From Aquificota bacterium (lineage in GTDB: Bacteria > Aquificota > Aquificia > Desulfurobacteriales > DQVG01): a DNA stretch of 64,000 bases. Each line of letters starts with the position of its first letter. Within the stretch, counting starts at the first letter, position 1. Positions 19,781-56,587 of this stretch are shown piece by piece. Where the stretch lies: NCBI GenBank assembly GCA_027002265.1, contig JAMOTM010000056.1, positions 30,977 to 94,976 on the forward strand. Direction: 5' to 3'. Below the pieces are notes generated by a model, which was given only the letters and a program-made list of their open reading frames with translations, had not been told where the DNA came from and did no database searches. Position numbers and translations under genes: made by a program.

Positions 19781-20974
19781 ATGAAACGTCAAAGAAATTT
19801 AAAATTATCTTCTAATAAATGTCCTATATATCCTTGTAGGTTTATAAATATATTAAACATACCTAAAATAAAATCTTTAATAGAAGATATTTTTTGCTTT
19901 GCCGAGTATACAGATTGCCAAAGATTTCTAAGACATCAAATGCATTTGGAAGTTCCCGAAGATTTATGGCCTATAGAAAGAATTTCAATCTCTGAAGTTT
20001 TAAAAAATATAGGTTTTTCTTTTGGAAAGGAAATAGAAAGATATAAAAGATTTTTTCAAAAATTTAAAAAAAGTGAATATTTCAAAAATGTGATTTTGAA
20101 AACTTTAACTTCTATAGAAAAGGGAATCTATAATAAAAGATTGAATTTTTTTAGAGCATTTTTTGAAAAATACTACGAGGAATTATTTATAAAAAAATTC
20201 AATAATCGATTCTTTTTAAAAATGGCATATTTAATTTTAAAAGAAAATATAGATGAAGCTATTTTCGACTCATCCTTTTTGGTCTATTCTACCTTTCTTT
20301 CAGAAAATATGTATCTTTGGAGTTTGCAAAATATTAAAAATTCTATTCTTAGAGCAAGGATTTTATCAAGCTTTACAAAATTAAACACTTTAGCTTTAAT
20401 CTTTATAAAAAGGAACGTAAAATTAATTAAGGAAATTGAAGAAATAAAAAAAACAAGAACTTATATTTTTAATATAAAAAACGAACTTTATATAGATCCT
20501 CTTACTAAGGTTTTAAATAGAAGATTTCTAGAAAATTATAAGGATGACATTTTAAAAAATTATTCTCATATTTTAGTTTTAGACATAGATCACTTTAAAA
20601 AGATAAATGATACATATGGTCATCAAATTGGAGATTTAGTTTTACAAAGTGTATGTAAAATATTAAAAAAGCTTTTAAGAAAAAAAGATTTAATTATAAG
20701 ATATGGTGGAGAAGAATTTATTTTGGCTATAAATGTACCTGATGATGAAACAGCTCTAAAAGTAGCAGAAAGAATTAGAAAAGCTATAGAAAATACCTTA
20801 ATTACTATAAATGATGATAAAATTAGAATTACAGTTTCCATTGGAATATCTAAAATAAATCCAAACAAATCTTTTGAAGAAATTTTCTTGCTTGCAGACA
20901 AAGCTTTATATGAAGCAAAAAGAAGTGGAAGAAATAAAGTAGTTTTTAAAAAGGAGTTTGAGGAATCTTATTAA
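19781..20974 (+). CDS. Diguanylate cyclase (GGDEF) with uncharacterised Cys-containing N-terminal domain
   Basis: Motifs: DPLTKVLNRRF, DIDHFKKINDTYGHQIGDLVL, RYGGEEFILA, ADKALYEAKRSGRNKV. Confidence 0.9.
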   Translation: MKRQRNLKLSSNKCPIYPCRFINILNIPKIKSLIEDIFCFAEYTDCQRFLRHQMHLEVPEDLWPIERISISEVLKNIGFSFGKEIERYKRFFQKFKKSEYFKNVILKTLTSIEKGIYNKRLNFFRAFFEKYYEELFIKKFNNRFFLKMAYLILKENIDEAIFDSSFLVYSTFLSENMYLWSLQNIKNSILRARILSSFTKLNTLALIFIKRNVKLIKEIEEIKKTRTYIFNIKNELYIDPLTKVLNRRFLENYKDDILKNYSHILVLDIDHFKKINDTYGHQIGDLVLQSVCKILKKLLRKKDLIIRYGGEEFILAINVPDDETALKVAERIRKAIENTLITINDDKIRITVSIGISKINPNKSFEEIFLLADKALYEAKRSGRNKVVFKKEFEESY

Positions 20975-29109: not shown

Positions 29110-30402
29110 ATGATAAAGGAAATATCTCCTATAACAAGAATAGAAGGTCACCTTAAAGTAGAGGTAGAGACCTCTCAAAATGTGGTAAAAAAAGCAAAAA
29201 TAGTTGGGGAAATGTATAGAGGTATAGAAAAAATTGTTGAAAATAGGCATTTTATGGATCCCATAAGAATAGTTCAAAGAGTTTGTGGACTTTGCTGTGA
29301 AGTTCATGGACTTGCTTCATGTAAAGCTATTGAAAACGCAATAAATGCTCCAGTTGAACCAAATGGAGACAAAATAAGAGATTTAATTATTTGTTTGAAT
29401 ATAATTAATGATCATTCTCTACATTTTTATCAATTAACTTTACCCGATTATATAGATTTTAGCGTTTTAGAAAATGTTCCTCTTTTTTTAAAAAATCCTC
29501 CTAAAGCTCCAGATTTAATTAGGGATAAAATAGTTGCAAAAAAATTTTTAAAAAAATATTTAGATTCCTTTAAATTAAGAACTAGAGTTTGTCAAGGAAT
29601 TGCTATCTTAGGAGCTAAAACTCCATTTGCTCACGCCATTTTAGTAGGTGGAGTTTCTACGAATATAAGAACAGATGATGTAGGATTTTTTGTATCTTTA
29701 CTAAATGATGTAAAAGACTTTTTAGAGGAATATAAAAAAGATATTTTATTTTTAGCGGAAAACTTTAAACATTTATTTGATATAGGAAAAGGCCCTGGAA
29801 ATTACCTTTCAGTTCCTCACTTATATGTTCCGGGTAAAGTTTTAATAAATGGAAAAGAAGAAGAATTTGATGTTTCTTATGTTACGGAAGATGAACCTAA
29901 ATATGGATTTATAAAAACTCCAAGATATAAAGGATATGTAGTTGAAACAGGCCCTTTAGCTGAATGTATTTTAACGAAAAATAAAGAGTTTTATGATTTA
30001 TTAAAGAAATTAAATGTTCCAAAAGAAAAAGCTAACTCCTTAATGGGACGGCTTCTTGCAAGATATGTAGATAGCTTAATGGCTTATAGATATGCAAAAG
30101 ATCTTGTAGATAGTATTTTGGCAAAAGGAAATAATATTTATTGGAAAGATCCAAAGGGACTTTATGAAGGAGAAGGTTATGGTTTTGTAAAAGCTCCAAG
30201 AGGAGCTTTAATTCATTATATAAAAATTCAAGATAGTAAAGTGAAAAAATACTCTATTATTTCTCCATCTACTTGGAATTTTTCTGCAGGTGGTCCTGTA
30301 GAAATAGCTTTAAAGGGATGCCCGGTAGAAAGTGAAGATTTAGTAAATGTAGGAAGAATAATAAGAAGCTTTGATCCATGTACAGCGTGCTCTATTCAGT
30401 AG
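29110..30402 (+). CDS. [NiFe]-hydrogenase large subunit (short form, no C-terminal extension)
   Basis: N-terminal ITRIEGH and RVCGLCCEVH (RxCGxCxxxH). C-terminal Ni-Fe ligand pair in FDPCTACSIQ, immediately followed by TAG. RBS GGAGG. Confidence 0.9.
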   Translation: MIKEISPITRIEGHLKVEVETSQNVVKKAKIVGEMYRGIEKIVENRHFMDPIRIVQRVCGLCCEVHGLASCKAIENAINAPVEPNGDKIRDLIICLNIINDHSLHFYQLTLPDYIDFSVLENVPLFLKNPPKAPDLIRDKIVAKKFLKKYLDSFKLRTRVCQGIAILGAKTPFAHAILVGGVSTNIRTDDVGFFVSLLNDVKDFLEEYKKDILFLAENFKHLFDIGKGPGNYLSVPHLYVPGKVLINGKEEEFDVSYVTEDEPKYGFIKTPRYKGYVVETGPLAECILTKNKEFYDLLKKLNVPKEKANSLMGRLLARYVDSLMAYRYAKDLVDSILAKGNNIYWKDPKGLYEGEGYGFVKAPRGALIHYIKIQDSKVKKYSIISPSTWNFSAGGPVEIALKGCPVESEDLVNVGRIIRSFDPCTACSIQ

Positions 30403-30517
30403 GAAATTAATTTTTATAAAATAAATTTAAAATGGAAACTTAAAACTAATAAGTTTATTGGACGAAAATAATAAAAAAAATTTTTGGGATAAGGGGTCTT
30501 TTTAGGAGGAAATAAAA

Positions 30518-31441
30518 ATGAAAACTACTCGAAGAGAACTTTTAAAATATTTAGGTAGCTTAGCTGCTCTTTTAGGACTTCCAAAAAGTGTGGGAAAAGC
30601 TTATGCTGAAACTTTACGAAAACTTAAGGAAGGAAAAACTAAAATAATAATTATTTCTGGTCAGGCTTGTTCAGGATGTATTTTATCTGCAACTTATTCG
30701 GATGGTCCTTTTTTTGATGATTTAGTTATTATGATAAAAAATATTTTACATCCAACTTTAGCAGCTTCTCAGGGGAAAAATTTTATAAAAGAACTTTATA
30801 AAGTTATAGATGAAGGAGATTATATTTTAACTACGGAAGGTGCTGTTCCGGGAGAGGAAAAGTACTGTGAATTTGGTGGAAAACCTTATTCTGAAATTCT
30901 TTTAGATGCAGTAAGAAATGCTAAATTTTTAGTAAATATGGGGACATGTGCCTCTTATGGGGGTGTCCCTGCAGCAAAAGGTAATCCTACAAAAGCTATG
31001 AGTGTGCCCGAGTTTTTAAAGAAAAACGGTGTAAATATTCCTTATGTAAATGTTCCAGGATGCCCAGTTAGAAGCGATAGAATACTTGCAACTTGGCTTT
31101 ATATAGCAACTTTTGATAAGCTTCCTCCTATAAATCAAAAAATTAATGCTCCAAAAATGTTTTATGAAGATATTATTCACTATAACTGCGAAAGATATCA
31201 GTACTTTACTCAAGATATATATGCTAAAAAACCTGGAGATAAATTTAAATGCCTTTTGGCCCTTGGATGTAGAGGACCTATAACTTATGGAGATTGTTCT
31301 TATAAACGCTGGAACTGTGGAAAAAATTATTGTATAGCCGCCGGAACACCTTGTATAGGTTGTTCTAATCCAAAATTTCCTTTTGATAAGCCAATTTATA
31401 CATCTCCACAAGAAGTTTTAAAAGGTTTAAAGATTCAATAA
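30518..31441 (+). CDS. [NiFe]-hydrogenase small subunit with twin-arginine (Tat) signal peptide
   Basis: Tat motif: MKTTRRELLKYLGSLAALLGL...AYA. FeS ligand motifs: GQACSGC, GTCASYGG, PGCPV, HYNCERY, CLLALGCRGP, CIAAGTPCIGCSNP. Confidence 0.9.
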   Translation: MKTTRRELLKYLGSLAALLGLPKSVGKAYAETLRKLKEGKTKIIIISGQACSGCILSATYSDGPFFDDLVIMIKNILHPTLAASQGKNFIKELYKVIDEGDYILTTEGAVPGEEKYCEFGGKPYSEILLDAVRNAKFLVNMGTCASYGGVPAAKGNPTKAMSVPEFLKKNGVNIPYVNVPGCPVRSDRILATWLYIATFDKLPPINQKINAPKMFYEDIIHYNCERYQYFTQDIYAKKPGDKFKCLLALGCRGPITYGDCSYKRWNCGKNYCIAAGTPCIGCSNPKFPFDKPIYTSPQEVLKGLKIQ

Positions 31442-31455
31442 GAGGGTGAGGAAAA

Positions 31456-33795
31456 ATGAGATTAAAGTATTTATTACCCGGAATATCTTTTGTAACTTTA
31501 TTGATTTTAGCAATAATTTTCTTCATATATTCTCAATATTCCATAAATTCCATAAAAAAAGAAAATATCAACTTAGCTAAAGCTTTAGGTAATACTGCTT
31601 TTAGTAGTGCTTATGATTCTTTACGAAAAGGTAATATGGTACTTTTTGATCATATTTTAAAGTCTATTGCTTCTCAAAAAATTATTCGTGAGTTTAGTTT
31701 AGCAGATAAAAATGGAGTAATAGAATACTCTTCAAATCCATCTTTACTTGGAAAAAAAATCAATATTGAAGAAATAAAAAAGAAATTTAAAATAAAAGAA
31801 TTAAAACCAGAAACAATGTATTTAACTTTAGATAAAAATGAGAAAGCAACTTTAGTTTTTAAAGCTATAAAAACAATTCCTTATTGTATTAGATGTCATA
31901 CTACCTGGAAGCTAGGAGAAATAAATTCCTATTATATTTTAAAAGTAGATGCAAGAAATATATTAACCGTAATAACTACAACCCGACTAGTGAACCTTCT
32001 TTACTTACTGGCAGCTATTGTTATTTTATTTATCACTTTATTCATTTTAAATCACCAATTTATCAGACCTCTTGAAAAAGTGAAAAGTGCTTTAAATGAA
32101 ATTTCTAAAGGAAATCTGAAAGTTAAACCTAAAATCTATGTAAATAACGAAATTCAGGAGGTTGCAAGAGCATTAAATAGAACTTTAAAAAATATAAATT
32201 TTATATTTTCTCAAATAAATGAGTTTGCAGAAAATGTAAATAAAGGTAATGTTTTTGTAAATATAGATTATGGACAAACTCAAGGAGATTTTAGGGCTAC
32301 CTTAGAAAAATTAAATGAAATAGTCAAAAATCTTCAAAAATTTGTGAAAGGATTAGAAGATGTTTTAAATAAAATTGAATCTATGAACATAGGAGTAAGT
32401 GTAAATGGAGCTTCTGCTCGGGGAAATTTAATAAAGATTTATGAGTATTTCCAAAAGGTATTTAATGATCTTAAAGAAACTATAGAAACAGTAACTAAAT
32501 CTATAAAAGAACTTTCTAGCAAACTTGCGGAAGGAGAATTTGAAACCGAGGATCCCCTTAAATATAAAGGAATATGGCAAGATATTGTTATATCTTTAAA
32601 TGCTATTGTAAATAGTATTGAAAAAGTAACTACCTATTTAAAAAGAATTCTTGAAGATACTATAAATGGAAAATCTTCTCAAATTGATATAGAAGAGTTT
32701 AAAGGAATTTATAGAGAAATTATTGAAAATCTTTTAGATTTTCAAAATAAACTTAAAGAAGCAATTAAAGAAGTTCAAAATATTTCTAAAGCTATTGCAG
32801 ATGGTAATTTTGATACATCTTTAAATACAGCTAGTTTACCACCGGCTCTATTACCAATAGGAGAGGCTGTGGAAGATATAAAAAATAATATTAACCGTGT
32901 TATTGTTGCTCTTGATAAAGCTATTAAAAAAATGGCCATGGGAGATTTATCTGTTCGTATAAATGAAAACGAATTTAAAGGTAAGTATAAAGAAATTGCC
33001 AAAATGTTTAATTATGGAGTTAGACAGCTTGCTCAAGCCATTGCAGTTTCTTTATCTACTTTTGAACTTATTGGTGAAAGAGTAGAAAAAACAATTCAGG
33101 AACTTATGAAAACCATAAATACCTTCAACATGCAAAATAAAAAGACTGAAGAAATTTCTCAGGAAATCCTACGTCTTATTGACGTTCTAAGGAATTTAAA
33201 GAAAGAAATGGATAGGGTAAAACAAATTTCCAGGGTTACCGAGGAAGATTTAGTGAAAACTCAGGAATCCTTTGAACATATTGCAAATATTCTTAAAACC
33301 CGTCTAGAAGAACTTGATAAGATCGTTGATATTATTCTTTCTATTTCTGAGCAAACAAATTTACTTGCCTTAAATGCGGCAATTGAAGCGGCCCGTGCTG
33401 GAGAAATGGGAAGAGGTTTTGCAGTAGTTGCAGATGAAGTTAGAAAGCTCTCAACTCAAGTTTCCGAACAAGCTAATGAAATACGTTCTACTATTTCTCA
33501 ACTTTCAGATGATATTAGAAAATATATCTTTGAAAATCTCTCTAAGCTTCTTGAAAATATTAAAAATAGCATGAATAACCTTTTAGATGTTATTGAAAAA
33601 GTATCTACCACTACCGAAAAAGAAGCATCTCAAGCTGAAAAATCTAAAGAAGATATTATTGCGCTTGAAAATCTTGCAAAAGAATCTAGCGAAAAAATTA
33701 AGAAAATTGTGGAAGACTTTAAAAAGGTTGAAGAACTTCTTACAGATTTATCCGAAGTATCTAAGAAATTTAAAGTTGGAGATTTAAAGAAATAA
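31456..33795 (+). CDS. Methyl-accepting chemotaxis protein with periplasmic CXXCH (heme c) sensor domain and poly-HAMP-like array
   Basis: TM1 about aa 6-25 and TM2 about aa 176-199. Periplasmic loop with C144-I-R-C147-H148 (nt 31885-31899), the only Cys residues in 779 aa. About 400 aa of repeated HAMP-like units. Canonical hairpin [35 protein letters not shown]. Confidence 0.9.
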
Positions 33796-33872: not shown

Positions 33873-34151
33873 ATGAAAAAGTTGTTAGCAATTTTAGGTA
33901 TATTGTTTGGAACAGCTTTTGCTCAATGCTATGTACCTTGTCAAACTTGCGTATCTGGATATGTTGTAATGTATCCCGGAACATATGTTCCAAATGTTTG
34001 TAATAATCCTTGTTGCTGTGAATACTGTAGTTTTTGTTATTCTTCTTGCTGTTTGCCTTCAGGGTGTATTTACGGCCCTGTTAATTGTCCAACATGTTAT
34101 CCAACATGCTGCCCAACTCAGTCTATAATTGTTAATCAAGTGGCAAACTAA
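33873..34151 (+). CDS. Secreted cysteine-rich small protein (16 Cys in the 75-aa mature part)
   Basis: Strong RBS GGAAGGAGGAG. Signal peptide MKKLLAILGILFGTAFA|Q. The mature part is C/P/Y/T/V-rich, with CCC, CC, CxxC and CxC runs and no K, R, H or D. Confidence 0.7.
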   Translation: MKKLLAILGILFGTAFAQCYVPCQTCVSGYVVMYPGTYVPNVCNNPCCCEYCSFCYSSCCLPSGCIYGPVNCPTCYPTCCPTQSIIVNQVAN

Positions 34152-34161
34152 GGAGGAAAAA

Positions 34162-34509
34162 ATGAAAAAAATATTTATATCTTCTTTAGTAGTCACATCC
34201 TTCCTTCTTGTAGGTTGTGAATGTACTGATGTACAAACAACTCCTCCGCAAACTACTTCTTTTCAAGCCAATATTCCACAAATTCAAACATGTGATGCAT
34301 GTGCTAATCAAACAAGTACAAAAATTACGAAGATTTTACCTACTGAAAAAAAAGTAATTCAAAATGTAATAACCGTAAATCCAAAACCAATATGTACTTG
34401 CCCAAGCATACCAATGGTTCCAGCAAATTATTTTGTAACATATGAACCACTTAATGATTATCCAGTCACCTATAAGACAAAATACACAGAACCTTGCTCT
34501 TGCTACTAA
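34162..34509 (+). CDS. Small lipoprotein with four CxC/CxxC pairs
   Basis: ATG 34162 preceded by AGGAGG (34151-34156). Lipobox LLVGC. Cys pairs: CEC, CDAC, CTC, CSC. The ORF-track start 34129 lacks an RBS. Confidence 0.65.
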   Translation: MKKIFISSLVVTSFLLVGCECTDVQTTPPQTTSFQANIPQIQTCDACANQTSTKITKILPTEKKVIQNVITVNPKPICTCPSIPMVPANYFVTYEPLNDYPVTYKTKYTEPCSCY

Positions 34510-34521
34510 GGGGGATAAAAA

Positions 34522-35346
34522 ATGATAGAAATTATAATAAAAGCTATTTTTGCTATAGCTCAAGTAGTAAATTTAAATACAGTATATACGTATACACCTT
34601 ATACCAAACCTACAATACAACCTTATAATCCAACCTTGCCTTCTACACAACTTAACTTGCAAAATTCCCCAAAAATTGTATATCCTTTACCTCAAAATAC
34701 TAATAATTTACCTAGAGCAGCTCAACCTGTACCCCCGCTAACCTATCAACCTCAAAGAAGATCTAATACAGTTCAAAATATTCAAATATATACAACTTTT
34801 CCAAAAGCTTCATATTTACCATCTATATCAAGAAAAGGTATACTTTTACCTATTTTACCTTCAAGAACAAAAATAGGATACTTAAATTCAAATATTATCT
34901 TTTTAGCTGATCAACTTTTAAGAAATATGGATAAGGAATTTAAAAAATATCCCGTTATTGTAACTACATTTGTAAATTTAAATAATTTTAAAGAAACAAG
35001 TGATTTAGGAAGACTACTAAAGGAAAATTTAGTTCATGAACTTCAAGTAAGAGGTTGGAAGGTTATTGATATTAATTATATGCCTAAAATTGTTGTAAAT
35101 AAATATGGAGAATTTGTTTTAACAAGAGATATGAAACGTATTATAAAAAAATATAAAGTTGCCTCAATTTTAGCTGGAACTTATACAGTAGCTGATAATT
35201 CTCTAATTGTAAATGCTAAAATTATAGATGCAAAAAGTGGTCTTATTATTTCAACCGGACAATTTGAGATTCCTTTAGAATTTGTTGAGGATTTATTAAA
35301 AAATAGTTCTTTAAAACCTGTTGAAATTATAGTAACGGGAGAATAA
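34522..35346 (+). CDS. Envelope protein: P/Q/T/Y-rich low-complexity N-terminal half + FlgO-like (LpoB/CsgG/TolB-N-like) C-terminal domain
   Basis: RBS AAGGGGGA. The C-terminal VIVTTFVNLNNFKETSDLGRLLKENLVHELQVRGWKVIDI ... ILAGTYTVADNSLIVNAKIIDAKSGLIIS fits the FlgO-family pattern as I remember it. Confidence 0.5.
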   Translation: MIEIIIKAIFAIAQVVNLNTVYTYTPYTKPTIQPYNPTLPSTQLNLQNSPKIVYPLPQNTNNLPRAAQPVPPLTYQPQRRSNTVQNIQIYTTFPKASYLPSISRKGILLPILPSRTKIGYLNSNIIFLADQLLRNMDKEFKKYPVIVTTFVNLNNFKETSDLGRLLKENLVHELQVRGWKVIDINYMPKIVVNKYGEFVLTRDMKRIIKKYKVASILAGTYTVADNSLIVNAKIIDAKSGLIISTGQFEIPLEFVEDLLKNSSLKPVEIIVTGE

Positions 35347-35356
35347 AAGGAAAATA

Positions 35357-35938
35357 ATGAAAAAATTTTTATCCCTTTTTCTTGTAGGAGCGGGATTTCT
35401 CCCGCTCTACTCTTGTGTTTATCAGGAAGATGTTACACCTTATTATATTGACAAATATTCTGAGCCTATTTCATACGCCAATATAAAGTATGTTCCTTTA
35501 GATGATCTTTTAAATCACATAAAACCTCAAGAAATAAAATATGTTTTTGATAAAATAGTAATCTCTATGTGTCCATGTATATGTAAATATAATAAAGTTA
35601 TTGTTACAGATTTACCAAATCTTTCTTATTTAAAAGTAGATAAGCTTTCCTCTTATTTTGGAGATACTTTAAGAACATCTGTTTCAGATATGTGTCATAA
35701 ACCTACCATTTTAGCTGAATTTTCAAAGTATCTAAAGATAAATACTCTTGGAATAAAAGTAAGAAGTAGAAAAGTAAATGATCTATTAAATAAAAAGTAT
35801 AAAGGATATTCTGTAGCTTTTTTAACAGGAACTTATCAAATAAATAATGATAAAATTACTGTGTTTGTAAAGTTTATAGATGCAAAAACTGGGAAGATTC
35901 TTTGTGCCAAGGAAGGTATTATAAATATATATCCTTAA
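35357..35938 (+). CDS. Lipoprotein with FlgO-like C-terminal segment
   Basis: Signal plus lipobox-like FLPLYSC. C-terminal VAFLTGTYQINNDKITVFVKFIDAKTGKIL repeats the motif of the preceding gene. Confidence 0.45.
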   Translation: MKKFLSLFLVGAGFLPLYSCVYQEDVTPYYIDKYSEPISYANIKYVPLDDLLNHIKPQEIKYVFDKIVISMCPCICKYNKVIVTDLPNLSYLKVDKLSSYFGDTLRTSVSDMCHKPTILAEFSKYLKINTLGIKVRSRKVNDLLNKKYKGYSVAFLTGTYQINNDKITVFVKFIDAKTGKILCAKEGIINIYP

Positions 35939-36307: not shown

Positions 36308-36362
36308 CTAATATTTATATTTAAAAGTAAGTGAATCTAAATTGAGAAAATGGAGCTACTTT

Positions 36363-36971
36363 ATGAAAGGTTTTGGTTATTACAAAGAAAAACTTTCAAA
36401 CCGTCAAATCCCCATTTTTGCAGATTTAGACTTAAATCTTGATAAAGGAATAGTTTTTATAAAAAATATACGTCCCTCAACTTTAGCAGCCATTTTAAAA
36501 TTTGGAGATTTAATGGAATTTGTCTTTACAGATAAAGATAATAAGTCAAAAGATATAGTTTTAGAGATCGTAACGGAGACTGCTCCTGGTATATATCAAG
36601 GAAAAATACTAAAGCTTTCTGAAAATAAAAGAAGATTTCCCCGTTTTAATGTTAGAAACTTAGATGTAAGAGTTATTGTTGCCGGAACTTACTTTGGATT
36701 TTTAAGAGATATTTCTTTAAGGGGTTTTTCGGTAGAAATAAAGGAAGTTCCCGATAAACTTTTTTTAAAAAAAACTTATCCTGTGAAAATACTTTATAAA
36801 GGTAAAGAATATAAGTTCTCTTCTCAACTGGTAGGTATGTCATATGATGATGAGAAAGAATGTTATATTCTTAGATTCAGAATTTTAGAAAGTTTAAGAA
36901 ATATTAAACTTATAGATGAACTTTATAAAAAACTTTTTGAAGATGAGTTAAAACTATTTCTAAGTTCCTAA
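36363..36971 (+). CDS. PilZ-domain c-di-GMP receptor protein
   Basis: PilZ motifs RRFPR (RxxxR) and DISLRG (DxSxxG). ATG 36363 with GGAG upstream is preferred over TTG 36342. Confidence 0.75.
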   Translation: MKGFGYYKEKLSNRQIPIFADLDLNLDKGIVFIKNIRPSTLAAILKFGDLMEFVFTDKDNKSKDIVLEIVTETAPGIYQGKILKLSENKRRFPRFNVRNLDVRVIVAGTYFGFLRDISLRGFSVEIKEVPDKLFLKKTYPVKILYKGKEYKFSSQLVGMSYDDEKECYILRFRILESLRNIKLIDELYKKLFEDELKLFLSS

Positions 36972-37016: not shown

Positions 37017-39131
37017 TTATTTATCATTTTTTAACTTTTCTAAATATTCTTTAACCTTTTCAAAGGGCATAGGAGGAGAGAAATAATATCCTTGTAGATA
37101 ATCGACTCCTAGTTTGTTTAAAAGTTTTGCAGTTTCTTCATCCTCAACAAATTCTGCAATGGTTTTTAAGTGGAGTTTTCTTGCCATAATTACAATAGTT
37201 TCTACAATTTCCTGCTTTTTCCTATTAATTTTTAAATCTTTAACCAAAGATCCGTCTATTTTAAGGTATTTAATAATTCCTCGAATAGATAAATCCAAAA
37301 CTGTATGTAAAGAAGAAAATCCAGTTCCAAAATCATCTATTGCAAAATCTAAATTTAGTTCTTTTCTTAGTTTTTCAATTTGCTCTAAATTTTCTAAAAT
37401 AAATTGTTCGGTAATCTCAAAGACGGTATTTCCAAGGTATATGTTTTTTAACTCTTCCAAAATATGTTTAGAATACAAAGATTTTGGAGACAAATTAACA
37501 AAAAGCTTTACAGGAAGTTCTTTTCTAATTTTGGATATATATTTAAGCATTTGAATATCAATATCTAAAATAAGACCTGTTTCAATAGCTACATCAATGA
37601 ACATACCTGCAGGTAAAACTTTATTATTATCTACAATTCTTGCAAGACATTCAAACGCGTATGGTTTGTATGTTTTTGAGTCTACGATAGGTTGAAAATA
37701 AGCAATAACTTTCTGTTCTTTTATAGCTTTTTGTAAAATTTTTTCTTTTTCCATAATATCTTCAAGTTTTAAACGAAAATCTGCATGACCTTCATAAATA
37801 ACTATTGAACCCTTGCTTTGGTTTTTTGCATAATCTTCCAAATATTCAACAAAGGAAAAAAAATCACATGAATTTTTTAAACATTTAGAACAATCTATTT
37901 TTTCCTTCACTACCATAGTAAATTTTGGAATATACTCTAAACCATTTTCTAAATATATGGGTTTTTCAAGTTTGTCTTTTATACTTTTTAAAAAAGCATA
38001 ATCCTTAAATTTTTTATCTTGAGAAGGAATGAAAATTACAAAAGTATTAGACCAAAATCGTGAGATTAACGGATTAAAATCTTTAAAAACAGATTTTATT
38101 CTTTCAGCAATTAATCTTAAAAGATTATCTCCAGATTTCCTACCGTAAATTTCATTAAATCTTTTAAACTTTACAAGATCTAAAATAATGATATATCCTT
38201 TTTTATTTTTTGTATACTCAAAAAATACATCTCTGTTTAAAGTATTTGTTAAATCATCTTTGATAAGGAGTTCCTCCATTTTTTTTCTTTCTTTACAGAA
38301 TAAAATTAAGGAAGAAATAACAAGAATAACTCCAAATAAAATAGAGATTATAGATAACCTTTCGTAAAATTTCTCTTTCTTTTGTAACTTTGTTTCTTCC
38401 TCTAAAAGTTCCATCTTTGTATTTTTTAAAAATATATAAAATTGATTTTTTAAATCCTCAAATATGCAATTTATTAAGTTATCTATTAAGTTTGTAGAAT
38501 TAAACATATTTTTGTCAAAGTGTAAATTACATTTTTGTATAAAATCTTCAGAATAATAGAATTTTAGTAACCTAATTAAGTGATAAATATAATCCTTGGA
38601 TATATTACTATTAGTAACAAAAGTTTTTGAAAAATCTTGAAGATGCCAATATAAATTTTCTTCTTCATTTTGTAAATCCTTAAATTTTAAAGGAAAAGAA
38701 AAAGAACCTTTTCCTTGCAAATTTTTAAAAATTCTTTTCTCGAGTTTTCCAATAAGAAATGCAAAATCAAAAGTTTGGGCTTGATTGTGTTTTATCTTAT
38801 TTATTAACACTTCTAAATCTTTTTTTAATTTTTGATCATCTAGTAAATTTAAAGTTTGCTCTAATATATTTTCAGACTTAATTTTTAATTTTTTGTTTCT
38901 TTTAGAAAGGGTATAATATATTTCAGCTTGATGAATATTTATTAAAGCTTGAAAATATTTTTCTATATTATGCAAATTATAATTTACATAATGATACTGC
39001 GTTAATTTTTGATAATAATCTTCCTTAAGCTTTAAACCTATAGCTCCAATAATAAAAAAAATCATAGATAAAAGTCCTATTATAGGGCTTATAATAATTT
39101 GAAAACGTTTCTTTCTTGTCATATCCTTCAC
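37017..39131 (-). CDS. Membrane-anchored degenerate-GGDEF + EAL c-di-GMP phosphodiesterase
   Basis: Two TM segments flank a ~240-aa N-terminal domain. The GGDEF-like domain has RFWSNTF in place of GGDEF. EAL domain motifs: FECLARI, NLSPKS, EITE, DDFGTGFSSL, KIDGSLV, AEFVE, QGYYFSPP. Confidence 0.85.
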   Translation of the reverse strand: MKDMTRKKRFQIIISPIIGLLSMIFFIIGAIGLKLKEDYYQKLTQYHYVNYNLHNIEKYFQALINIHQAEIYYTLSKRNKKLKIKSENILEQTLNLLDDQKLKKDLEVLINKIKHNQAQTFDFAFLIGKLEKRIFKNLQGKGSFSFPLKFKDLQNEEENLYWHLQDFSKTFVTNSNISKDYIYHLIRLLKFYYSEDFIQKCNLHFDKNMFNSTNLIDNLINCIFEDLKNQFYIFLKNTKMELLEEETKLQKKEKFYERLSIISILFGVILVISSLILFCKERKKMEELLIKDDLTNTLNRDVFFEYTKNKKGYIIILDLVKFKRFNEIYGRKSGDNLLRLIAERIKSVFKDFNPLISRFWSNTFVIFIPSQDKKFKDYAFLKSIKDKLEKPIYLENGLEYIPKFTMVVKEKIDCSKCLKNSCDFFSFVEYLEDYAKNQSKGSIVIYEGHADFRLKLEDIMEKEKILQKAIKEQKVIAYFQPIVDSKTYKPYAFECLARIVDNNKVLPAGMFIDVAIETGLILDIDIQMLKYISKIRKELPVKLFVNLSPKSLYSKHILEELKNIYLGNTVFEITEQFILENLEQIEKLRKELNLDFAIDDFGTGFSSLHTVLDLSIRGIIKYLKIDGSLVKDLKINRKKQEIVETIVIMARKLHLKTIAEFVEDEETAKLLNKLGVDYLQGYYFSPPMPFEKVKEYLEKLKNDK

Positions 39132-48620: not shown

Positions 48621-48967
48621 AAAATGAAGTTTATGTAAAAAAGTATTCTATAGTGATAAAAGATTTAAAACTTGTTTTGCATTGTGGAGATATTCAAGAA
48701 GAAAAAATTCTCGGAATAGAAACTTTAATGGATTTTGAAATTGAAGCTATTGATTTTTTGGATTATATGGTTATTTATAAGTTTATAGAAGATTACTCAA
48801 AACATGAGTTTAAATATCTAGAGGACTTTTGCTTTTCTTTAGCTAAAGAAATGTTTAAAACTTTTAAACAAATTATTAAAATATACATATACATAAGAAA
48901 AAAATCCATCCCCTTTAATATTTATGCTCAAGAAATAGGAGTTAAATTAGAATTTGAAAAAAATTAA
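48587..48967 (+). CDS. folB: Dihydroneopterin aldolase-like T-fold protein
   Basis: TTG start 7 nt after AAGGAGG. The pattern IVIKDLKLVLHCGDIQEEKILGIETLMDFEIEA ... IYIYIRKKSIP...IGVKLEF parallels FolB by eye. Confidence 0.5.
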   Translation: MDFSKNFSSQVKNEVYVKKYSIVIKDLKLVLHCGDIQEEKILGIETLMDFEIEAIDFLDYMVIYKFIEDYSKHEFKYLEDFCFSLAKEMFKTFKQIIKIYIYIRKKSIPFNIYAQEIGVKLEFEKN

Positions 48968-48977
48968 GGAGAAAAAA

Positions 48978-50054
48978 ATGGAAAAAAAATTAAAATGTAA
49001 GGTTTTAGAGAAAATATTTAATAATGAGTATTCCGAAGAGGATATAAAACTTATATCCGAAATTGCGCGTGAGGAACTTAAATTTTTGGTTAGAAATAAT
49101 ATTCCAATAACTCCCCAAAATTTCGAAGCATGGTTTTATGTATTTTGCTATGTTTTAGAAAATCTAAAATATATTCCCAGCGACGAAGAACTAAAAGAAC
49201 TTTTTAAAAATTTTTATAAAAATGAAAAAGCTATTTTAAAACAAGGTTTAAATCCCAAAGTTTTAAAAGAATTTTCTGAAAAATTAGAAAAGGAAATAGA
49301 TAATGTTTTAAAACTTATAGATAATCATACCAATTCTTTAGATAAACATCAAAAAAACTTAGAAAATATAGAAAAGAAAACTCAAAATAAAAATTTAAAT
49401 GTTGAAGAGCTTTTAAAAGAGATACTAAATGAAGTTCACTCTTTAAAAGAACAAAATGAATCTTTAAAAGTAAAACTTCAGGAAGCTCAACTTCAAATAA
49501 GTGAACTTAAAGAGGAACTTCAGCAAACAAAAAGAGAAGCTACTATAGATTTTCTTACGAAAATTCCAAATAGAATGTCGTTTATGAGAGCTTTAAGAGA
49601 TTTTGTAAGAGATTACTATGAAAGAAAATATCCTTTTGCTTTAATTATGGTAGATATAGATCACTTTAAAAATATTAATGATACTTATGGTCATCTTTGT
49701 GGGGATAAAGTTTTAAAAGCAGTTGCGGAAACTTTAAAGCTTAACTTAAGAGCACGAGATATTATAGGTAGATATGGAGGGGAAGAATTTGGAATTATTT
49801 TACCTGGAGTTAACTTAGCCCAAGCTGTAAGTATCGCAGAAAGATTAAGAAAAGCGGTTGAAGGTATAACCATAGATTGTAATGGAGTTCCAATAAAAGT
49901 TACTATATCTTTAGGTGTAGCTACTATGAAAGATGGTTTAGATGAAGAGAAACTTATAAGTTTAGCTGATGAGGCTTTATATTTAGCAAAAAGAAGTGGA
50001 AGAAACAGGGTTAAAACAAGCGTAGATGTTGAAATAGAAAAAAAGTCTAAGTAG
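48978..50054 (+). CDS. Diguanylate cyclase (GGDEF) with coiled-coil N-terminal region
   Basis: Motifs: DFLTKIPNR, DIDHFKNINDTYGHLCGDKVL, RYGGEEFGIIL, ADEALYLAKRSGRNRV. ATG 48978 after AAGGAG. Confidence 0.9.
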   Translation: MEKKLKCKVLEKIFNNEYSEEDIKLISEIAREELKFLVRNNIPITPQNFEAWFYVFCYVLENLKYIPSDEELKELFKNFYKNEKAILKQGLNPKVLKEFSEKLEKEIDNVLKLIDNHTNSLDKHQKNLENIEKKTQNKNLNVEELLKEILNEVHSLKEQNESLKVKLQEAQLQISELKEELQQTKREATIDFLTKIPNRMSFMRALRDFVRDYYERKYPFALIMVDIDHFKNINDTYGHLCGDKVLKAVAETLKLNLRARDIIGRYGGEEFGIILPGVNLAQAVSIAERLRKAVEGITIDCNGVPIKVTISLGVATMKDGLDEEKLISLADEALYLAKRSGRNRVKTSVDVEIEKKSK

Positions 50055-51384: not shown

Positions 51385-53241
51385 ATGGGTAAAATTTCAA
51401 AAAAACTTCAAAGTAAATTTATTTGGTATTTTCTTATATTCACCATTTTGGCTTTAGCACTTTCAAACTTTATAATTATTTCCATAATAGGTGCAAAAAG
51501 TAAATATGCTTTAAGCATACTTCTTAATAATTACTTTGTTAACTCAAATACAATTAATGAATTAATAAATAGACTTGTAACCTCTCCCTTTGTTTCTCAC
51601 TTAACAGTTTTAAAAGATGGAGTTATATATAAGGATTTAACAGGCCTTGCAGATAGTTATAACTACATCCTTACAAAAAGTTTTATAGGAAAAAATGGTA
51701 TTTATGAGGTAAAATTATTCATATCTTTACCTGATCTAGTTAAATATGTATATATAAAGCTTTTTTATTTAAGCTTTATATTAACTCTTCTTTTTGATGT
51801 ATTTTTCCTTCTTTTTTATAGAAATATAAAAAATACATTTATTAGACCTATAGAAGTTCTTTTATCAAATATTAAAGAAAGAAAAATAAGCAAGTTAATA
51901 TCTATAAAAAATAAAGAATTTTTTGAAGCTCAAAAAGAACTTGAAGATATTTTTTCCGTTATTAGAATTTCTCAACAAAAAATTCATTTTATATCTGAAA
52001 TTTTAGAGGTCTTATCTCGAAGTGAAAATTTCAAGGAAGATTTTAAACATTTACTTAAAAAGCTTGTAAATTCTTTACCTCAAATAGATGGATTTTTATT
52101 AGTTGAAAAACAAAATGATGATGGTCTGAAGGTCAAAGTTATAGATAAACATTTTGAAAAAGAATTTAAAGTAGATAAAGAAAGCTTTAGCTTGTATGCT
52201 TTTAACTTAATCAATCCTAAACTTGTTCCAGAAGTAGATAAACTTGGAGTTTTATCCGAAGAAGAAAAGGAAATTTTTATAAAGGATGCTTATGTAATTC
52301 CTATTAATTTATTTTCAAAAAAAATAGGAGCTTTTATAACTTATTCAAAAGGAAAATTATTTTTATCTGATATTGAAAAGGAATTTTTTAAACTTCTTGG
52401 ATTTACTATCTTTTTAGCTTTAGTTTTAGATAAAGTTTATAAGGAGGCTCAAAACATAGATAAGCTCAAAGCTGAGCTTTTAATAAAGGGAATAACAAAT
52501 TATTTAAATATATTAGAAAATAGGTATATATATAGCTATAAAACTCAAAGAATTCTTTCTTTAATAGAAAAATTAAAAGATACTTTAAGCAGTTTAAATT
52601 TAGATTTAGAAAAATTAAAAAGAGCTGCAACTTTAATGGATATAGGTCTTTTTATGATGCCAGATAAAATTGTTTTAAATTTTGAAGAAGATTTGGAGGA
52701 AAAGGAAAAAAATCTCTATGAGCTTCATCCAATAATCGGAAGTATATATATAAACTCTTTAAATGCTTGTGATGAAGATATAAAAAGAGCAATTTTAGAA
52801 CATCATGAAAATATAGATGGAAGTGGTTTTCCTTCGCAAAAAAAGGGAAATGAAATTTCAAGTTATGCAAAAGTTTTAAGAATTTTAGATGATTTTGATA
52901 GTTTAAGTTATAAAGAAAACAAAGAAAAGGCTTTAGAATTTTTAAGAGAGCAAAAGGGAAAATATTATGATGAAGAAATTTTAGATAAACTTTTACCAGA
53001 ACTTGAAAAAATAGAAATTCCAAAAGTATCTTCCTTATTACCTGAAGAGATTTTAGAGCTGCAAAGAGAAGTTCTAGAAATAGAAAAAAATAGTTTAAAT
53101 ATAGCTTTACCAAAAGATCTTGAAAAAATAGAAAAGGAAATAGAGGAAAATAACAAAGATATAGAGGACAATGAAACACAAAAGACAAAAGAATCTTCTC
53201 AAGAAAATTTAGAAAACTTGAAAGATACTCAAAATCCTTAA
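51385..53241 (+). CDS. Membrane-anchored HD-GYP-like protein with degenerate HD motif
   Basis: Two TM segments flank a ~90-aa loop, then a GAF-like middle region. The C-terminal domain has LMDIGLF in place of HDxGK but retains LHPIIG, HHENIDGSGFP and LDDFDSL. Confidence 0.7.
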   Translation: MGKISKKLQSKFIWYFLIFTILALALSNFIIISIIGAKSKYALSILLNNYFVNSNTINELINRLVTSPFVSHLTVLKDGVIYKDLTGLADSYNYILTKSFIGKNGIYEVKLFISLPDLVKYVYIKLFYLSFILTLLFDVFFLLFYRNIKNTFIRPIEVLLSNIKERKISKLISIKNKEFFEAQKELEDIFSVIRISQQKIHFISEILEVLSRSENFKEDFKHLLKKLVNSLPQIDGFLLVEKQNDDGLKVKVIDKHFEKEFKVDKESFSLYAFNLINPKLVPEVDKLGVLSEEEKEIFIKDAYVIPINLFSKKIGAFITYSKGKLFLSDIEKEFFKLLGFTIFLALVLDKVYKEAQNIDKLKAELLIKGITNYLNILENRYIYSYKTQRILSLIEKLKDTLSSLNLDLEKLKRAATLMDIGLFMMPDKIVLNFEEDLEEKEKNLYELHPIIGSIYINSLNACDEDIKRAILEHHENIDGSGFPSQKKGNEISSYAKVLRILDDFDSLSYKENKEKALEFLREQKGKYYDEEILDKLLPELEKIEIPKVSSLLPEEILELQREVLEIEKNSLNIALPKDLEKIEKEIEENNKDIEDNETQKTKESSQENLENLKDTQNP

Positions 53242-56586: not shown

Positions 56587-56587
56587 G

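What the first reader, a model, noticed from the sequence alone, without database searches (positions are those of the whole stretch)
29110..31441. Atypical periplasmic [NiFe]-hydrogenase: large subunit first, short, and ending at ...DPCTACSIQ with no cleavable extension
**Seen in the sequence**
- The large subunit is only 430 aa. It carries the N-terminal RxCGxCxxxH site (RVCGLCCEVH).
- Its C-terminal ligand pair is DPCTAC-S-I-Q-stop. The His/Arg that normally follows (DPCxxCxxH/R) is Gln, and that Gln is the last residue. There is therefore no C-terminal peptide for an endopeptidase to remove.
- The gene order is large, then a 115-bp gap, then small. This is the reverse of the usual small-then-large order of respiratory and sensory enzymes.
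- The small subunit carries a clear Tat signal (TRRELLKYLGS...AYA) but no C-terminal membrane anchor.
- No cytochrome b, Isp, diaphorase or maturation-protease gene is adjacent.

**Established knowledge**
- Lack of a C-terminal extension is a hallmark of H2-sensing regulatory hydrogenases (HupUV/HoxBC) and of Ech-type enzymes. Those enzymes are cytoplasmic or membrane-bound and lack Tat signals.

**Inference**
- A small, extension-less enzyme that is exported looks like a periplasmic sensory or low-turnover enzyme rather than a respiratory one.
Basis: partly seen in the sequence, partly recalled or inferred. Interest (0 to 1): 0.7.

Follow-up and report, generated by a model that had tools for sequence, protein, structure and literature searches.

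The report
Periplasmic hydrogenase wired to a chemoreceptor
This short, exported nickel-iron hydrogenase belongs to a conserved three-gene unit whose third gene is a chemotaxis receptor with a haem-binding outer domain, so it is most likely a hydrogen sensor that steers swimming rather than an energy-yielding enzyme.

Summary
There is a 430-aa [NiFe] large subunit ending ...DPCTACSIQ-stop, a 115-bp gap, and a 307-aa small subunit with a Tat signal and no membrane anchor.

It starts 14 bp downstream and encodes a 779-aa methyl-accepting chemotaxis protein. Its periplasmic domain has a Cache fold and carries an invariant CxxCH haem-c motif and an invariant Met.

The order large subunit, Tat small subunit, haem-c transducer recurs across many phyla:
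- 31 of 43 extension-less, large-first, Tat loci have a CxxCH transducer just downstream, against 0 of 45 other hydrogenase loci.
- The transducer output is usually an MCP, sometimes a histidine kinase or GGDEF/EAL protein.

By sequence and predicted fold the enzyme is closest to periplasmic group 1a/[NiFeSe] hydrogenases. It is only 26% identical to the HoxC H2 sensor.

My best reading is a periplasmic H2 sensor that reduces the receptor's haem and so biases chemotaxis. This rests on comparative evidence and is not demonstrated.

The window's Aquificota clade is a shortened, divergent branch in which the terminal His is not conserved (Gln, Leu or His).

I found no description of this module in the searchable literature. 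I rate it a new variant of a known kind (sensory hydrogenases).

The parts
29110..30402 (+). [NiFe]-hydrogenase large subunit, 430 aa, with no C-terminal extension
   Evidence: PF00374, E 7e-83. The AF2 model has pLDDT 89.6 and pTM 0.90. Its best structural matches are [NiFeSe] large subunits, TM 0.89-0.90 at 31-32% identity. It nests in the extension-less 'xEVH' clade.
29278..29307 (+). L1 metal-site motif RVCGLCCEVH (Cys59, Cys62)
   Evidence: The wider family has CGVCHEVH. The window clade has Leu61 and Cys63 or Ser63.
30373..30402 (+). L2 motif DPCTACSIQ (Cys424, Cys427, terminal Gln430) followed by the TAG stop
   Evidence: Clade relatives end in Q, L or H at the same column. The wider family always ends in H.
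30403..30517 (.). 115-bp AT-rich spacer with AGGAGG before the small-subunit ATG
   Evidence: No terminator-like site and no fold above shuffled controls (z 0.33). Relatives have gaps of about 10 bp.
30518..31441 (+). [NiFe]-hydrogenase small subunit, 307 aa, with no membrane anchor
   Evidence: PF01058 plus PF14720. The best PDB match is the DvH [NiFeSe] small subunit 2wpn_A, E 4e-47. Aligned ligands are Cys51/54/144/182, His221/Cys224/245/251 and Cys260/272/279/282. No TM segment.
30518..30607 (+). Tat signal peptide (T-R-R-E-L-L-K, hydrophobic core, A-Y-A cleavage site)
   Evidence: It aligns with the signal of 2wpn_A. The RRxFLK motif is conserved in small subunits of related loci.
31456..33795 (+). 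Methyl-accepting chemotaxis protein, 779 aa: TM1, periplasmic domain, TM2, HAMP region, MCP signalling domain
   Evidence: PF00672 HAMP (residues 198-247) and PF00015 MCPsignal (residues 612-689). Hydrophobic stretches fall within residues 2-33 and 169-206. It starts 14 bp after the small subunit.
31531..31965 (+). Periplasmic single-Cache-type sensor domain (about residues 26-170)
   Evidence: AF2 pLDDT 95.4 and pTM 0.87. Foldseek matches: WalK extracellular Cache domain (E 5e-7), then PctD, DctB, CitA and DcuS; the GSU0935 haem-c sensor 3b42 scores E 6e-3. 128 representative clusters in 1.84 billion proteins.
31885..31899 (+). CIRCH haem-c attachment motif (Cys144, Cys147, His148)
   Evidence: Invariant in alignments. 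Present in 127 of 128 family representatives.
31636..31638 (+). Invariant Met61 (KGNM motif), candidate distal haem ligand
   Evidence: The [KR]G[NEQDS]M motif is in 112 of 128 representatives. GSU0935 uses Met60 with Cys140/Cys143/His144 (PMC8396549).

Best explanation
The three genes form one module: a periplasmic H2 sensor coupled to chemotaxis.

1. **Maturation.** The Hyp machinery matures the large subunit. No endopeptidase step is needed because there is no C-terminal extension.
2. **Export.** The large subunit is exported folded, piggy-backing on the small subunit's Tat signal. The result is a soluble periplasmic heterodimer.
3. **Electron path.** H2 oxidised at the Ni-Fe site sends electrons down three Fe-S clusters to the His-ligated distal cluster.
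4. **Sensing.** Electrons pass from the distal cluster to a c-type haem bound to the CxxCH motif of the MCP's periplasmic Cache domain.
5. **Signal.** Reduction changes haem coordination. The invariant Met61 would bind as distal ligand, as Met60 does in Geobacter GSU0935. The change passes through TM2 and the HAMP region to the MCP tip, alters CheA activity and biases swimming along H2 or redox gradients.
6. **Variants.** In relatives the same sensor front end drives histidine kinases or c-di-GMP enzymes instead.

**Shown here:** gene content, motifs, conserved order, predicted folds.
**Inferred:** haem attachment, electron transfer from the hydrogenase, and the behavioural output.
For: **The enzyme looks intact**
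- All four Ni-Fe cysteines are present. The RIEGH Glu and the APRG Arg, which I take from memory to be catalytic residues, are also conserved.
- All 12 Fe-S ligands of the small subunit align with a solved periplasmic enzyme.
- The fold models confidently.

**Both partners are periplasmic**
- The small subunit has a Tat signal.
- The sensor domain lies between two TM helices.

**Synteny from the hydrogenase side**
- All 18 non-redundant 'xEVH'-clade loci have the large subunit, then a Tat small subunit, then a CxxCH transducer.
- Overall, 31 of 43 extension-less, large-first, Tat loci have a CxxCH transducer within 2.5 kb, against 0 of 45 other hydrogenase loci (Fisher p 3e-14).
- Gene starts and stops abut or overlap.

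**Synteny from the sensor side**
- Two of three informative loci sampled by starting from the sensor domain lie directly after large and small subunit genes.

**Swappable output, constant input**
- Of 38 third-gene products, 32 are MCPs, 3 are histidine kinases and 2 are GGDEF(/EAL) proteins.

**The sensor domain**
- Cache fold.
- Invariant Cys, Cys, His and Met.
- These residues sit at nearly the same positions as in the redox- and gas-responsive GSU0935 sensor.

**No respiratory partner, and sensor-like paralogy**
- No cytochrome b, Isp or soluble cytochrome gene is adjacent.
- One Deferribacterales contig carries two trios (L016, L018). L072 carries two enzyme pairs and two tandem transducers.

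**Local context**
- Flagellar (FlgH, FlgI, FlgO) and c-di-GMP genes surround the locus.
Against: - There is no experimental evidence for haem binding, electron transfer or H2 taxis.
- The sensor domain fails the Pfam thresholds for known haem-Cache families (E 0.1-0.2). It has no significant sequence match in the PDB.
- Six Planctomycetota loci pair the same kind of hydrogenase with an MCP-like protein that lacks CxxCH. Haem reduction therefore cannot be the universal mechanism.
- The enzyme is closest to respiratory group 1a enzymes, not to proven H2 sensors (26% identity to HoxC).
- No che genes were found in the window.
- The re-oxidation route for the haem is unknown.
Confidence: 0.58

Rival explanations
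1. The haem-Cache MCP is primarily a gas sensor (NO, CO or O2), as proposed for other haem-Cache transducers. On this reading the hydrogenase is an accessory reductase. It uses H2 to keep the sensor haem ferrous, or resets it after oxidation. H2 would be a co-factor, not the cue.
For: - Transducer-fused haem-Cache domains behave as NO sensors in vitro (PMC12889525).
- GSU0582 and GSU0935 bind CO and NO by displacing Met60 (PMC8396549).
- The same Cys/His/Met pattern is present here.
Against: - A dedicated, Tat-exported Ni-Fe enzyme that needs the full Hyp machinery is a costly way to supply a reductant.
- The hydrogenase-sensor pairing is very tight. That fits H2 being the input.
- The carriers named in the records are largely vent, sediment and other anaerobe lineages; I expect H2 to be their main fuel (my inference, not tested).
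Confidence: 0.15
2. Signalling works by protein-protein contact, not by electron transfer to haem. The hydrogenase docks on the transducer, as the cytoplasmic HoxBC sensor docks on the HoxJ kinase. Redox-state-dependent conformational changes of the enzyme itself are then relayed. The haem would have a structural or secondary role.
For: - Planctomycetota loci keep the extension-less, large-first, Tat hydrogenase plus an MCP-like gene but lack CxxCH.
- From my own knowledge, the regulatory hydrogenase of C. necator signals within a stable complex with its kinase.
Against: - CxxCH is present in 127 of 128 sensor-domain representatives.
- Cys, Cys, His and Met are invariant.
- The small subunit keeps a complete relay ending in the surface-facing, His-ligated distal cluster.
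Confidence: 0.15
3. It is an ordinary energy-conserving periplasmic uptake hydrogenase of the group 1a type. It would donate electrons to a soluble cytochrome encoded elsewhere. The neighbouring MCP would reflect only loose co-regulation, such as energy taxis.
For: - The closest sequence and structure matches are periplasmic [NiFeSe]/[NiFe] enzymes.
- The active site and Fe-S relay are intact.
Against: - The trio order is conserved across distant phyla with translational coupling.
- The association is absent from all 45 comparison loci.
- There is no cytochrome, Isp or cytochrome b partner.
- The missing extension and reversed gene order set the family apart from every extension-bearing relative.
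- Several copies occur per genome.
Confidence: 0.1
4. The short large subunit is an artefact or a decaying gene. This would mean a sequencing error at the TAG, or a pseudogene that has lost segments and the terminal His.
For: - The large subunit is about 50 aa shorter than its nearest family members.
- The terminal residue varies (Q, L or H) within the clade.
Against: - The identical protein is found on 7 contigs, and the three places shown come from different samples.
- Four clade members at 62-80% identity keep the same length, the same deletions and all invariant family residues.
- The AF2 model is a compact, confident fold.
- Read-through yields no extension-like peptide.
Confidence: 0.02

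Closest known systems
Periplasmic group 1a [NiFe]/[NiFeSe] hydrogenases (D. vulgaris Hildenborough HysAB, Dm. baculatum)
   Same: - Best sequence matches for both subunits.
- Best structural match for the large subunit, TM 0.89-0.90.
- Tat-signal small subunit.
- A four-Cys medial cluster pattern, as in the [NiFeSe] small subunit.
   Different: - Gene order is large then small, not small then large.
- There is no C-terminal extension and therefore no endopeptidase step.
- The large subunit is about 55-65 aa shorter.
- The active site has Cys, not Sec.
- The partner gene is a haem-c transducer, not a cytochrome c3-type acceptor.
Regulatory H2-sensing hydrogenase HoxBC/HupUV (HydDB group 2b) with the kinase HoxJ/HupT
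   Same: - The large subunit ends at the L2 motif with no extension.
- The genes are linked to a signal-transduction protein.
- A bulky residue sits between the two L1 cysteines. It is Leu61 here and Ile in HoxC. That this position gates the gas channel is from my own knowledge.
   Different: - HoxBC is encoded small-then-large. It is described as cytoplasmic (PMC4853749); I did not inspect HoxB for a Tat signal.
- Its L2 motif is CMVCTVH.
- Identity is only 26%.
- Its partner is a soluble histidine kinase, not a membrane MCP with periplasmic haem.
HydDB group 2c, 'diguanylate cyclase-linked (putative)' [NiFe] hydrogenases
   Same: - A putative H2 sensor adjacent to signalling proteins.
- A minority of relatives here are followed by PAS-GGDEF-EAL proteins (L005, L096).
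   Different: - Published descriptions give group 2c as cytosolic, with an L2 consensus of SFDxCLVCTVH (PMC4853749; PMC5037454).
- This family has SFDPC[TLM]AC[SA][IV]H and is Tat-exported.
- 32 of its 38 transducers are MCPs.
- I could not run HydDB, so overlap with group 2c is not strictly excluded.
Geobacter sulfurreducens MCPs GSU0582/GSU0935 and the haem-containing Cache (DUF3365/Tll0287) family
   Same: - A periplasmic Cache/PAS-like domain between two TM helices of an MCP.
- A CxxCH motif and a Met at nearly identical residue numbers: Met61/Cys144/Cys147/His148 here against Met60/Cys140/Cys143/His144.
- Foldseek recovers 3b42.
   Different: - Sequence similarity is below the thresholds of Pfam and HMMER.
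- The papers I read on the Geobacter sensors do not mention a hydrogenase. Here a dedicated hydrogenase is encoded immediately upstream.
[FeFe] group C2 'chemotactic (putative)' hydrogenases (HydDB)
   Same: The concept is the same: a hydrogenase genetically tied to an MCP and presumed to sense H2 (PMC5037454).
   Different: It is an unrelated enzyme class ([FeFe]). The HydDB table has no [NiFe] class linked to MCPs.

Membership tests
[NiFe]-hydrogenase heterodimer | Large subunit with the L1 (RxCGxCxxxH) and L2 (DPCxxC) cysteine pairs and a PF00374 match | tested here: met
   RVCGLCCEVH and DPCTAC are present. PF00374 E 7e-83.
[NiFe]-hydrogenase heterodimer | Small subunit with ligands for the proximal, medial and distal Fe-S clusters | tested here: met
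   PF01058 plus PF14720. Eleven Cys and one His align with the ligands of 2wpn_A.
Group 1a periplasmic uptake hydrogenase | Tat signal on the small subunit | tested here: met
   TRRELLK, a hydrophobic region and AYA. The region aligns to the signal of 2wpn_A.
Group 1a periplasmic uptake hydrogenase | C-terminal extension on the large subunit, removed by a specific endopeptidase | tested here: not met
   The protein ends at Gln430. No endopeptidase gene was found in the window.
Group 1a periplasmic uptake hydrogenase | Small-then-large gene order with a cytochrome or membrane electron-acceptor partner | tested here: not met
   The order is large then small, and the next gene is an MCP. Extension-bearing relatives are small-then-large in 34 of the 35 loci where order could be called.
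Group 2b regulatory hydrogenase (HoxBC/HupUV) | Large subunit without a C-terminal extension | tested here: met
   Both end at the L2 motif.
Group 2b regulatory hydrogenase (HoxBC/HupUV) | Cytoplasmic location (small subunit without a Tat signal), partnered with a HoxJ/HupT kinase | tested here: not met
   A Tat signal is present. The partner is an MCP. The pHG1 operon shows hoxB-hoxC followed by a gene annotated only as 'ATP-binding protein'; I take it to be the HoxJ kinase from my own knowledge.
Group 2b regulatory hydrogenase (HoxBC/HupUV) | Sequence affiliation with HoxC/HupV | tested here: not met
   26% identity to HoxC. That equals the identity to HoxG and is well below the match to group 1a. 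An NJ tree rooted on HoxC shows HoxC on a long branch outside the group.
HydDB group 2c (diguanylate cyclase-linked) | L2 consensus SFDxCLVCTVH and cytosolic location, as quoted in PMC4853749 | tested here: not met
   The motif here is SFDPCTACSIQ, and the enzyme is Tat-exported.
HydDB group 2c (diguanylate cyclase-linked) | Assignment by the HydDB classifier or a reference phylogeny | not testable with these tools
   HydDB and its reference set are not available here. A HoxC-seeded search returned only close group 2b proteins.
Haem-c Cache sensor domains (GSU0582/GSU0935, DUF3365/Tll0287) | Conserved CxxCH within an extracytoplasmic Cache fold | tested here: met
   CIRCH is invariant in the family. 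The AF2 model is a Cache fold, with Foldseek hits to WalK, DctB, CitA and 3b42.
Haem-c Cache sensor domains (GSU0582/GSU0935, DUF3365/Tll0287) | Significant match to the family profiles (PF21563, PF11845) | tested here: not met
   Only E 0.09-0.19, below the gathering scores. No significant PDB sequence match.
Haem-c Cache sensor domains (GSU0582/GSU0935, DUF3365/Tll0287) | Covalent haem with redox-linked Met ligation | not testable with these tools
   Only the invariant Met61 at the position equivalent to Met60 of GSU0935 can be shown.
Methyl-accepting chemotaxis protein | Two TM helices, a HAMP domain and an MCP signalling domain | tested here: met
   PF00672 and PF00015. Two hydrophobic segments.

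The most novel reading that the evidence does not exclude
These loci define a class of periplasmic, group-1-derived [NiFe] hydrogenases whose only job is to report H2. They would do so by reducing the haem of a Cache-domain transducer. This class is missing from the published HydDB table that I could read. If the reading is right, this is, as far as I know, the first molecular H2 chemoreceptor described in bacteria, with variants that drive kinases or c-di-GMP enzymes. It is spread across Aquificota, Deferribacterota, Desulfobacterota, Verrucomicrobiota and other phyla. The window's Aquificota branch would be a minimised version that has even dispensed with the terminal His.
Probability: 0.45. 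Interest if true: 0.85.

Novelty: new variant of a known kind. Interest (0 to 1): 0.68.

Why it matters
- **An open question becomes testable.** How motile H2-oxidising bacteria find H2 is unresolved. Recent work only speculates about H2 chemotaxis (PMC12004927). HydDB lists a putative chemotactic class only for [FeFe] enzymes.
- **A concrete mechanism.** A Tat-exported hydrogenase hard-wired to a haem-c chemoreceptor gives a defined three-gene module. The module is present in cultured, tractable organisms.
- **Classification.** Group-1-like hydrogenase sequences in metagenomes should not automatically be counted as respiratory H2 uptake.
- **Enzyme design.** The family offers a naturally minimal large subunit of 430 aa that needs no endopeptidase. 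This is of interest for maturation studies and for H2 biosensors.

Tried and rejected
**Searches that gave nothing useful**
- A word-indexed homologue search with the 202-aa sensor piece returned nothing. The exhaustive representative search replaced it.
- A profile of the sensor domain against PDB sequences gave no significant hit. Pfam gave only sub-threshold hints.
- A HoxC-seeded search, meant to reach group 2c, listed only group 2b proteins at 68-76% identity. Group 2c could therefore be compared only through its published motif.
- The Greening 2016 ISME J paper could not be read.
- Ten literature searches found no description of a [NiFe] hydrogenase coupled to an MCP. The T. ammonificans genome paper does not mention one.

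It was redone with sequences from the representative search.

**Negative results in the window**
- Rfam found nothing in the window.
- The 115-bp gap has no terminator, and its fold is no better than shuffled controls. Promoter-like sites are not above chance.

**Ideas rejected**
- Sequencing error at the TAG.
- A selenocysteine enzyme: the L2 codon is TGT.
- A membrane-anchored small subunit.
- Membership of group 2b.
Full report
**1. The observation**

- A 430-aa ORF at 29110-30402 carries RVCGLCCEVH and ends DPCTACSIQ-TAG.
- A 115-bp AT-rich spacer follows, with an AGGAGG ribosome-binding site.
- A 307-aa ORF at 30518-31441 starts MKTTRRELLKYLGSLAALLGLPKSVGKAYA.

Pfam assigns the first ORF to PF00374 (E 7e-83) and the second to PF01058 plus PF14720. 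NCBIfam's best models for both are the [NiFeSe]/[NiFe] periplasmic subunits, all below the equivalog cut-offs.

The small subunit has no hydrophobic segment that could serve as a membrane anchor.

The stop codon is not an error.
- The identical 430-aa protein is encoded on seven contigs, and the three places shown come from different samples.
- Relatives at 80, 73 and 62% identity end at the same alignment column.
- Read-through gives only 22 unrelated residues.

The spacer has no terminator-like site, and its predicted fold is no better than shuffled sequence. In relatives the same junction is about 10 bp.

**2.

A 779-aa methyl-accepting chemotaxis protein (31456-33795) starts fourteen bases after the small subunit.
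- It has two hydrophobic segments, a HAMP domain (residues 198-247) and an MCP signalling domain (residues 612-689).
- Between the two membrane segments lies a domain of about 145 residues that contains CIRCH, a c-type haem attachment motif.

**3. The three genes travel together**

*Within the window's clade*
- The closest relatives of the large subunit form a small clade (62-80% identity). Members are labelled Desulfurobacteriaceae or Aquificota MAGs.
- All members with enough flanking sequence show large subunit, Tat small subunit, then MCP with CxxCH. This includes a 62%-identical member in a completely different genomic neighbourhood.

*The next relatives*
- These share about 40% identity and are 458-496 aa long. 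They have CGVCHEVH, and every one ends exactly at DPCxxCxxH.
- They show the same trio in Denitrovibrio, a Seleniivibrio MAG, other Deferribacterales, Aquificales, Thermodesulfobacteriota and Geobacteraceae.
- Thermodesulfatator atlantic

us encodes a large subunit of this type, but I did not inspect its locus.

*A second extension-less lineage*
- A lineage with CGVCP[IVY]xH, about 505 aa long, repeats the pattern. It occurs in Desulfobulbaceae, Desulfurivibrio, Desulfarculus, Verrucomicrobiota and others.

*Counts over the loci fetched*
- Among non-redundant loci, 43 have an extension-less large subunit followed by a small subunit with an RR motif.
- 37 of the 43 have a gene matching my sensor-domain HMM within 2.5 kb downstream, and 31 of those carry CxxCH.
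- None of the 45 comparison loci do. These comprise 38 with a 12-17-aa extension, almost all small-then-large, and 7 extension-less, small-then-large, Tat-less loci.
- Fisher p is 3e-14 (CxxCH) and 7e-19 (any HMM hit).
- Stops and starts abut or overlap.

*Starting from the sensor domain*
- Two of three informative sampled loci again lie directly after large and small subunit genes.
- The third has a transposase fragment and no hydrogenase gene within the 5 kb upstream.

**4. Constant input, variable output**

Of 38 third-gene products, 32 carry an MCP signalling domain, 3 are histidine kinases and 2 are GGDEF (one with EAL). This is the signature of a sensory input module, not of a respiratory complex.

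Paralogy fits the same picture.
- One Deferribacterales contig carries two trios (L016, L018).
- L072 carries two enzyme pairs and two tandem transducers.

**5. The sensor domain**

*Family size and motifs*
- An exhaustive phmmer search of 1.84 billion representatives found 128 clusters. The domain always sits at the N-terminus, mostly of 500-800-aa proteins.
- 127 of the 128 have CxxCH, and 112 have a [KR]G[NEQDS]M motif.
- In alignments Gly59, Met61, Cys144, Cys147, His148 and Trp151 (MCP numbering) are invariant.

*Similarity to known families*
- The domain is not significantly similar to any Pfam family. The best hits, E 0.09-0.19, are the Geobacter MCP haem sensor family, Tll0287 and the WalK Cache domain.
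- It has no significant match to any PDB sequence.

*Predicted fold*
- It models with very high confidence (pLDDT 95.4, pTM 0.87) as a single Cache/PDC fold.
- Foldseek's best matches are the extracellular domains of WalK (E 5e-7), PctD, DctB, CitA and DcuS. The haem-c sensor of Geobacter GSU0935 scores E 6e-3.

*Comparison with GSU0935*
- In GSU0935 the haem is bound by Cys140, Cys143 and His144. Met60 becomes the distal ligand on reduction (PMC8396549).
- The residue numbers here are almost the same. I take the domain to be a divergent member of the haem-containing Cache sensors recently defined by Deshpande et al. (PMC12889525).
- Neither paper mentions a hydrogenase.

**6. The enzyme**

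*Small subunit*
- It aligns end to end, signal peptide included, with the D. vulgaris [NiFeSe] small subunit.
- It keeps all proximal, medial (four-Cys) and distal (His plus three Cys) ligands.

*Large subunit*
- It keeps the four metal cysteines, the RIEGH glutamate and the APRG arginine.
- It models as a complete fold (pLDDT 89.6, pTM 0.90).
- Its best structural matches are [NiFeSe] large subunits (TM 0.89-0.90).
- Identity to the regulatory-hydrogenase large subunit HoxC of C. necator is only 26%, the same as to the membrane-bound HoxG.
- In a rough NJ tree rooted on HoxC, the window clade sits on a long branch inside the 'xEVH' extension-less clade, among group-1-like sequences.

*Features specific to the window clade*
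- About five deletions, totalling roughly 50 residues.
- Leu instead of Val between the two L1 cysteines. From memory, this is the gas-channel gate position, where the HoxC sensor has Ile.
- Cys or Ser instead of His after the second L1 cysteine.
- A terminal residue that is Gln, Leu or His.

*The terminal residue*
- From my knowledge of Desulfovibrio structures, the terminal His ligates the Mg ion near the active site. I cannot say from sequence what its loss means.
- A terminal Gln is not unique. Cytoplasmic Acetothermia enzymes end ...DPCLACAIQ, and two extension-bearing proteins have Gln at that position.

**7. Mechanism**

The best-supported reading is a periplasmic H2 sensor.
1. The Tat-exported heterodimer oxidises H2.
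2. It passes electrons from its distal cluster to the haem of the Cache domain.
3. The resulting coordination change, with Met61 binding, is relayed through TM2 and HAMP to the chemotaxis machinery.

All electron-transfer and behavioural steps are inferred. Three rivals remain open:
- The hydrogenase only keeps a gas-sensing haem reduced.
- Signalling is by docking rather than haem reduction. The six Planctomycetota loci whose MCP-like partner lacks CxxCH favour this.
- It is an ordinary uptake enzyme.

The artefact or pseudogene reading is effectively excluded.

**8. Comparison with known systems, and novelty**

The published HydDB table lists these sensory classes (PMC5037454):
- [NiFe] 2b, kinase-linked.
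- [NiFe] 2c, 'diguanylate cyclase-linked (putative)'.
- [FeFe] C2, 'chemotactic (putative)'.

It has no MCP-linked [NiFe] class. Group 2c is described as cytosolic with an L2 consensus of SFDxCLVCTVH (PMC4853749), which does not fit this family. I could not run HydDB, so this exclusion rests on quoted features only.

A neighbourhood survey of [NiFe] hydrogenases lists MCP and EAL/GGDEF clusters among neighbours without interpreting them (PMC12727194). None of my ten literature searches found a description of the module. The T. ammonificans genome paper does not report one for cultured Desulfurobacteriaceae.

I therefore rate it a new variant of a known kind. It is a sensory hydrogenase, but it is periplasmic, derived from group 1 and coupled to haem-c chemoreceptors. 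The caveat is that subscription literature was not searchable.

**9. Context in the window**

- G+C content is 21-32%.
- The surrounding genes include FlgH, FlgI, FlgO-like genes, several GGDEF, EAL and HD-GYP proteins and a PilZ protein.
- A CobW/HypB/UreG-family gene lies at 62016-62783.
- I found no endopeptidase gene and no che genes.

Noticed in passing
window 56570-60952 (+): The 1460-aa SMC protein contains an intein splicing domain (PF14890, about residues 65-282) inserted in its N-terminal ATPase head.
   Followed up: no
window 33873-34151 and 34129-34509 (+): Two small secreted or lipoprotein-like proteins are extremely rich in cysteine; the 92-aa one has over 20 Cys. They lie directly after the MCP and before two FlgO-like genes (34522-35346, 35357-35938). 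Genes of similar size sit at the same position in relatives at 73% identity, but not in the 62% relative.
   Followed up: partly
L001 11906-17241 (Desulfurobacteriaceae MAG GCA_039832905.1): HcgB, HcgC, HcgF, a fibrillarin-like gene and a radical-SAM gene lie immediately downstream of that genome's hydrogenase-MCP trio. These genes make the cofactor of the [Fe]-hydrogenase Hmd. This hints at an Hmd-type system in a bacterium.
   Followed up: no
L024, L025, L027, L037, L046, L070 (Acetothermia/Bipolaricaulota MAGs): These loci have an extension-less large subunit ending ...DPCLACAIQ or ...AVQ, small-then-large order and no Tat signal. Judging only from their N-terminal sequences, the genes that follow look like MetV/MetF (methylene-THF reductase) and formate-THF ligase. 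That would suggest a cytoplasmic hydrogenase tied to the Wood-Ljungdahl methyl branch.
   Followed up: partly
L038, L050, L060, L063, L084, L091 (Planctomycetota MAGs): These loci have the same extension-less, large-first, Tat hydrogenase. The MCP-like gene that follows has a periplasmic part without CxxCH. This is either a haem-free version of the coupling or a different sensing mode.
   Followed up: partly
L054 8068-9363; L069 9537-10853; L097 3618-4931: In some loci a gene of about 435 aa sits between the small subunit and the haem transducer; it has a response-regulator domain in L097 (Pfam) and a response-regulator-like N-terminus in L069. The transducer is then a hybrid histidine kinase in L097 and, judging by size (937 aa), probably in L069; the L054 transducer (563 aa) was not typed. 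In L097 the hydrogenase position holds a transposase fragment.
   Followed up: no
window 62016-62783 (+) and 55393-56586 (+): The window holds a CobW/HypB/UreG-family GTPase (a HypB candidate) and a 397-aa AIR-synthase-family protein (a HypE, SelD or ThiL-like candidate). I found no HycI/HybD-type endopeptidase.
   Followed up: partly
window 29290-29292 (Leu61 of the large subunit): The window clade has CGLC where the wider family has CGVC or CGIC. The H2 sensor HoxC has Ile at this position. From my own knowledge this is the gas-channel gate residue, which suggests restricted gas access.
   Followed up: partly
window 1-64000: The window has very low G+C (21-32%). It also holds many c-di-GMP and HD-type signalling genes: GGDEF at 19781-20974 and 48954-50054, GGDEF-EAL at 37017-39131, HD-GYP-like at 106-1134 and 51385-53241, and PilZ at 36342-36971.
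   Followed up: no
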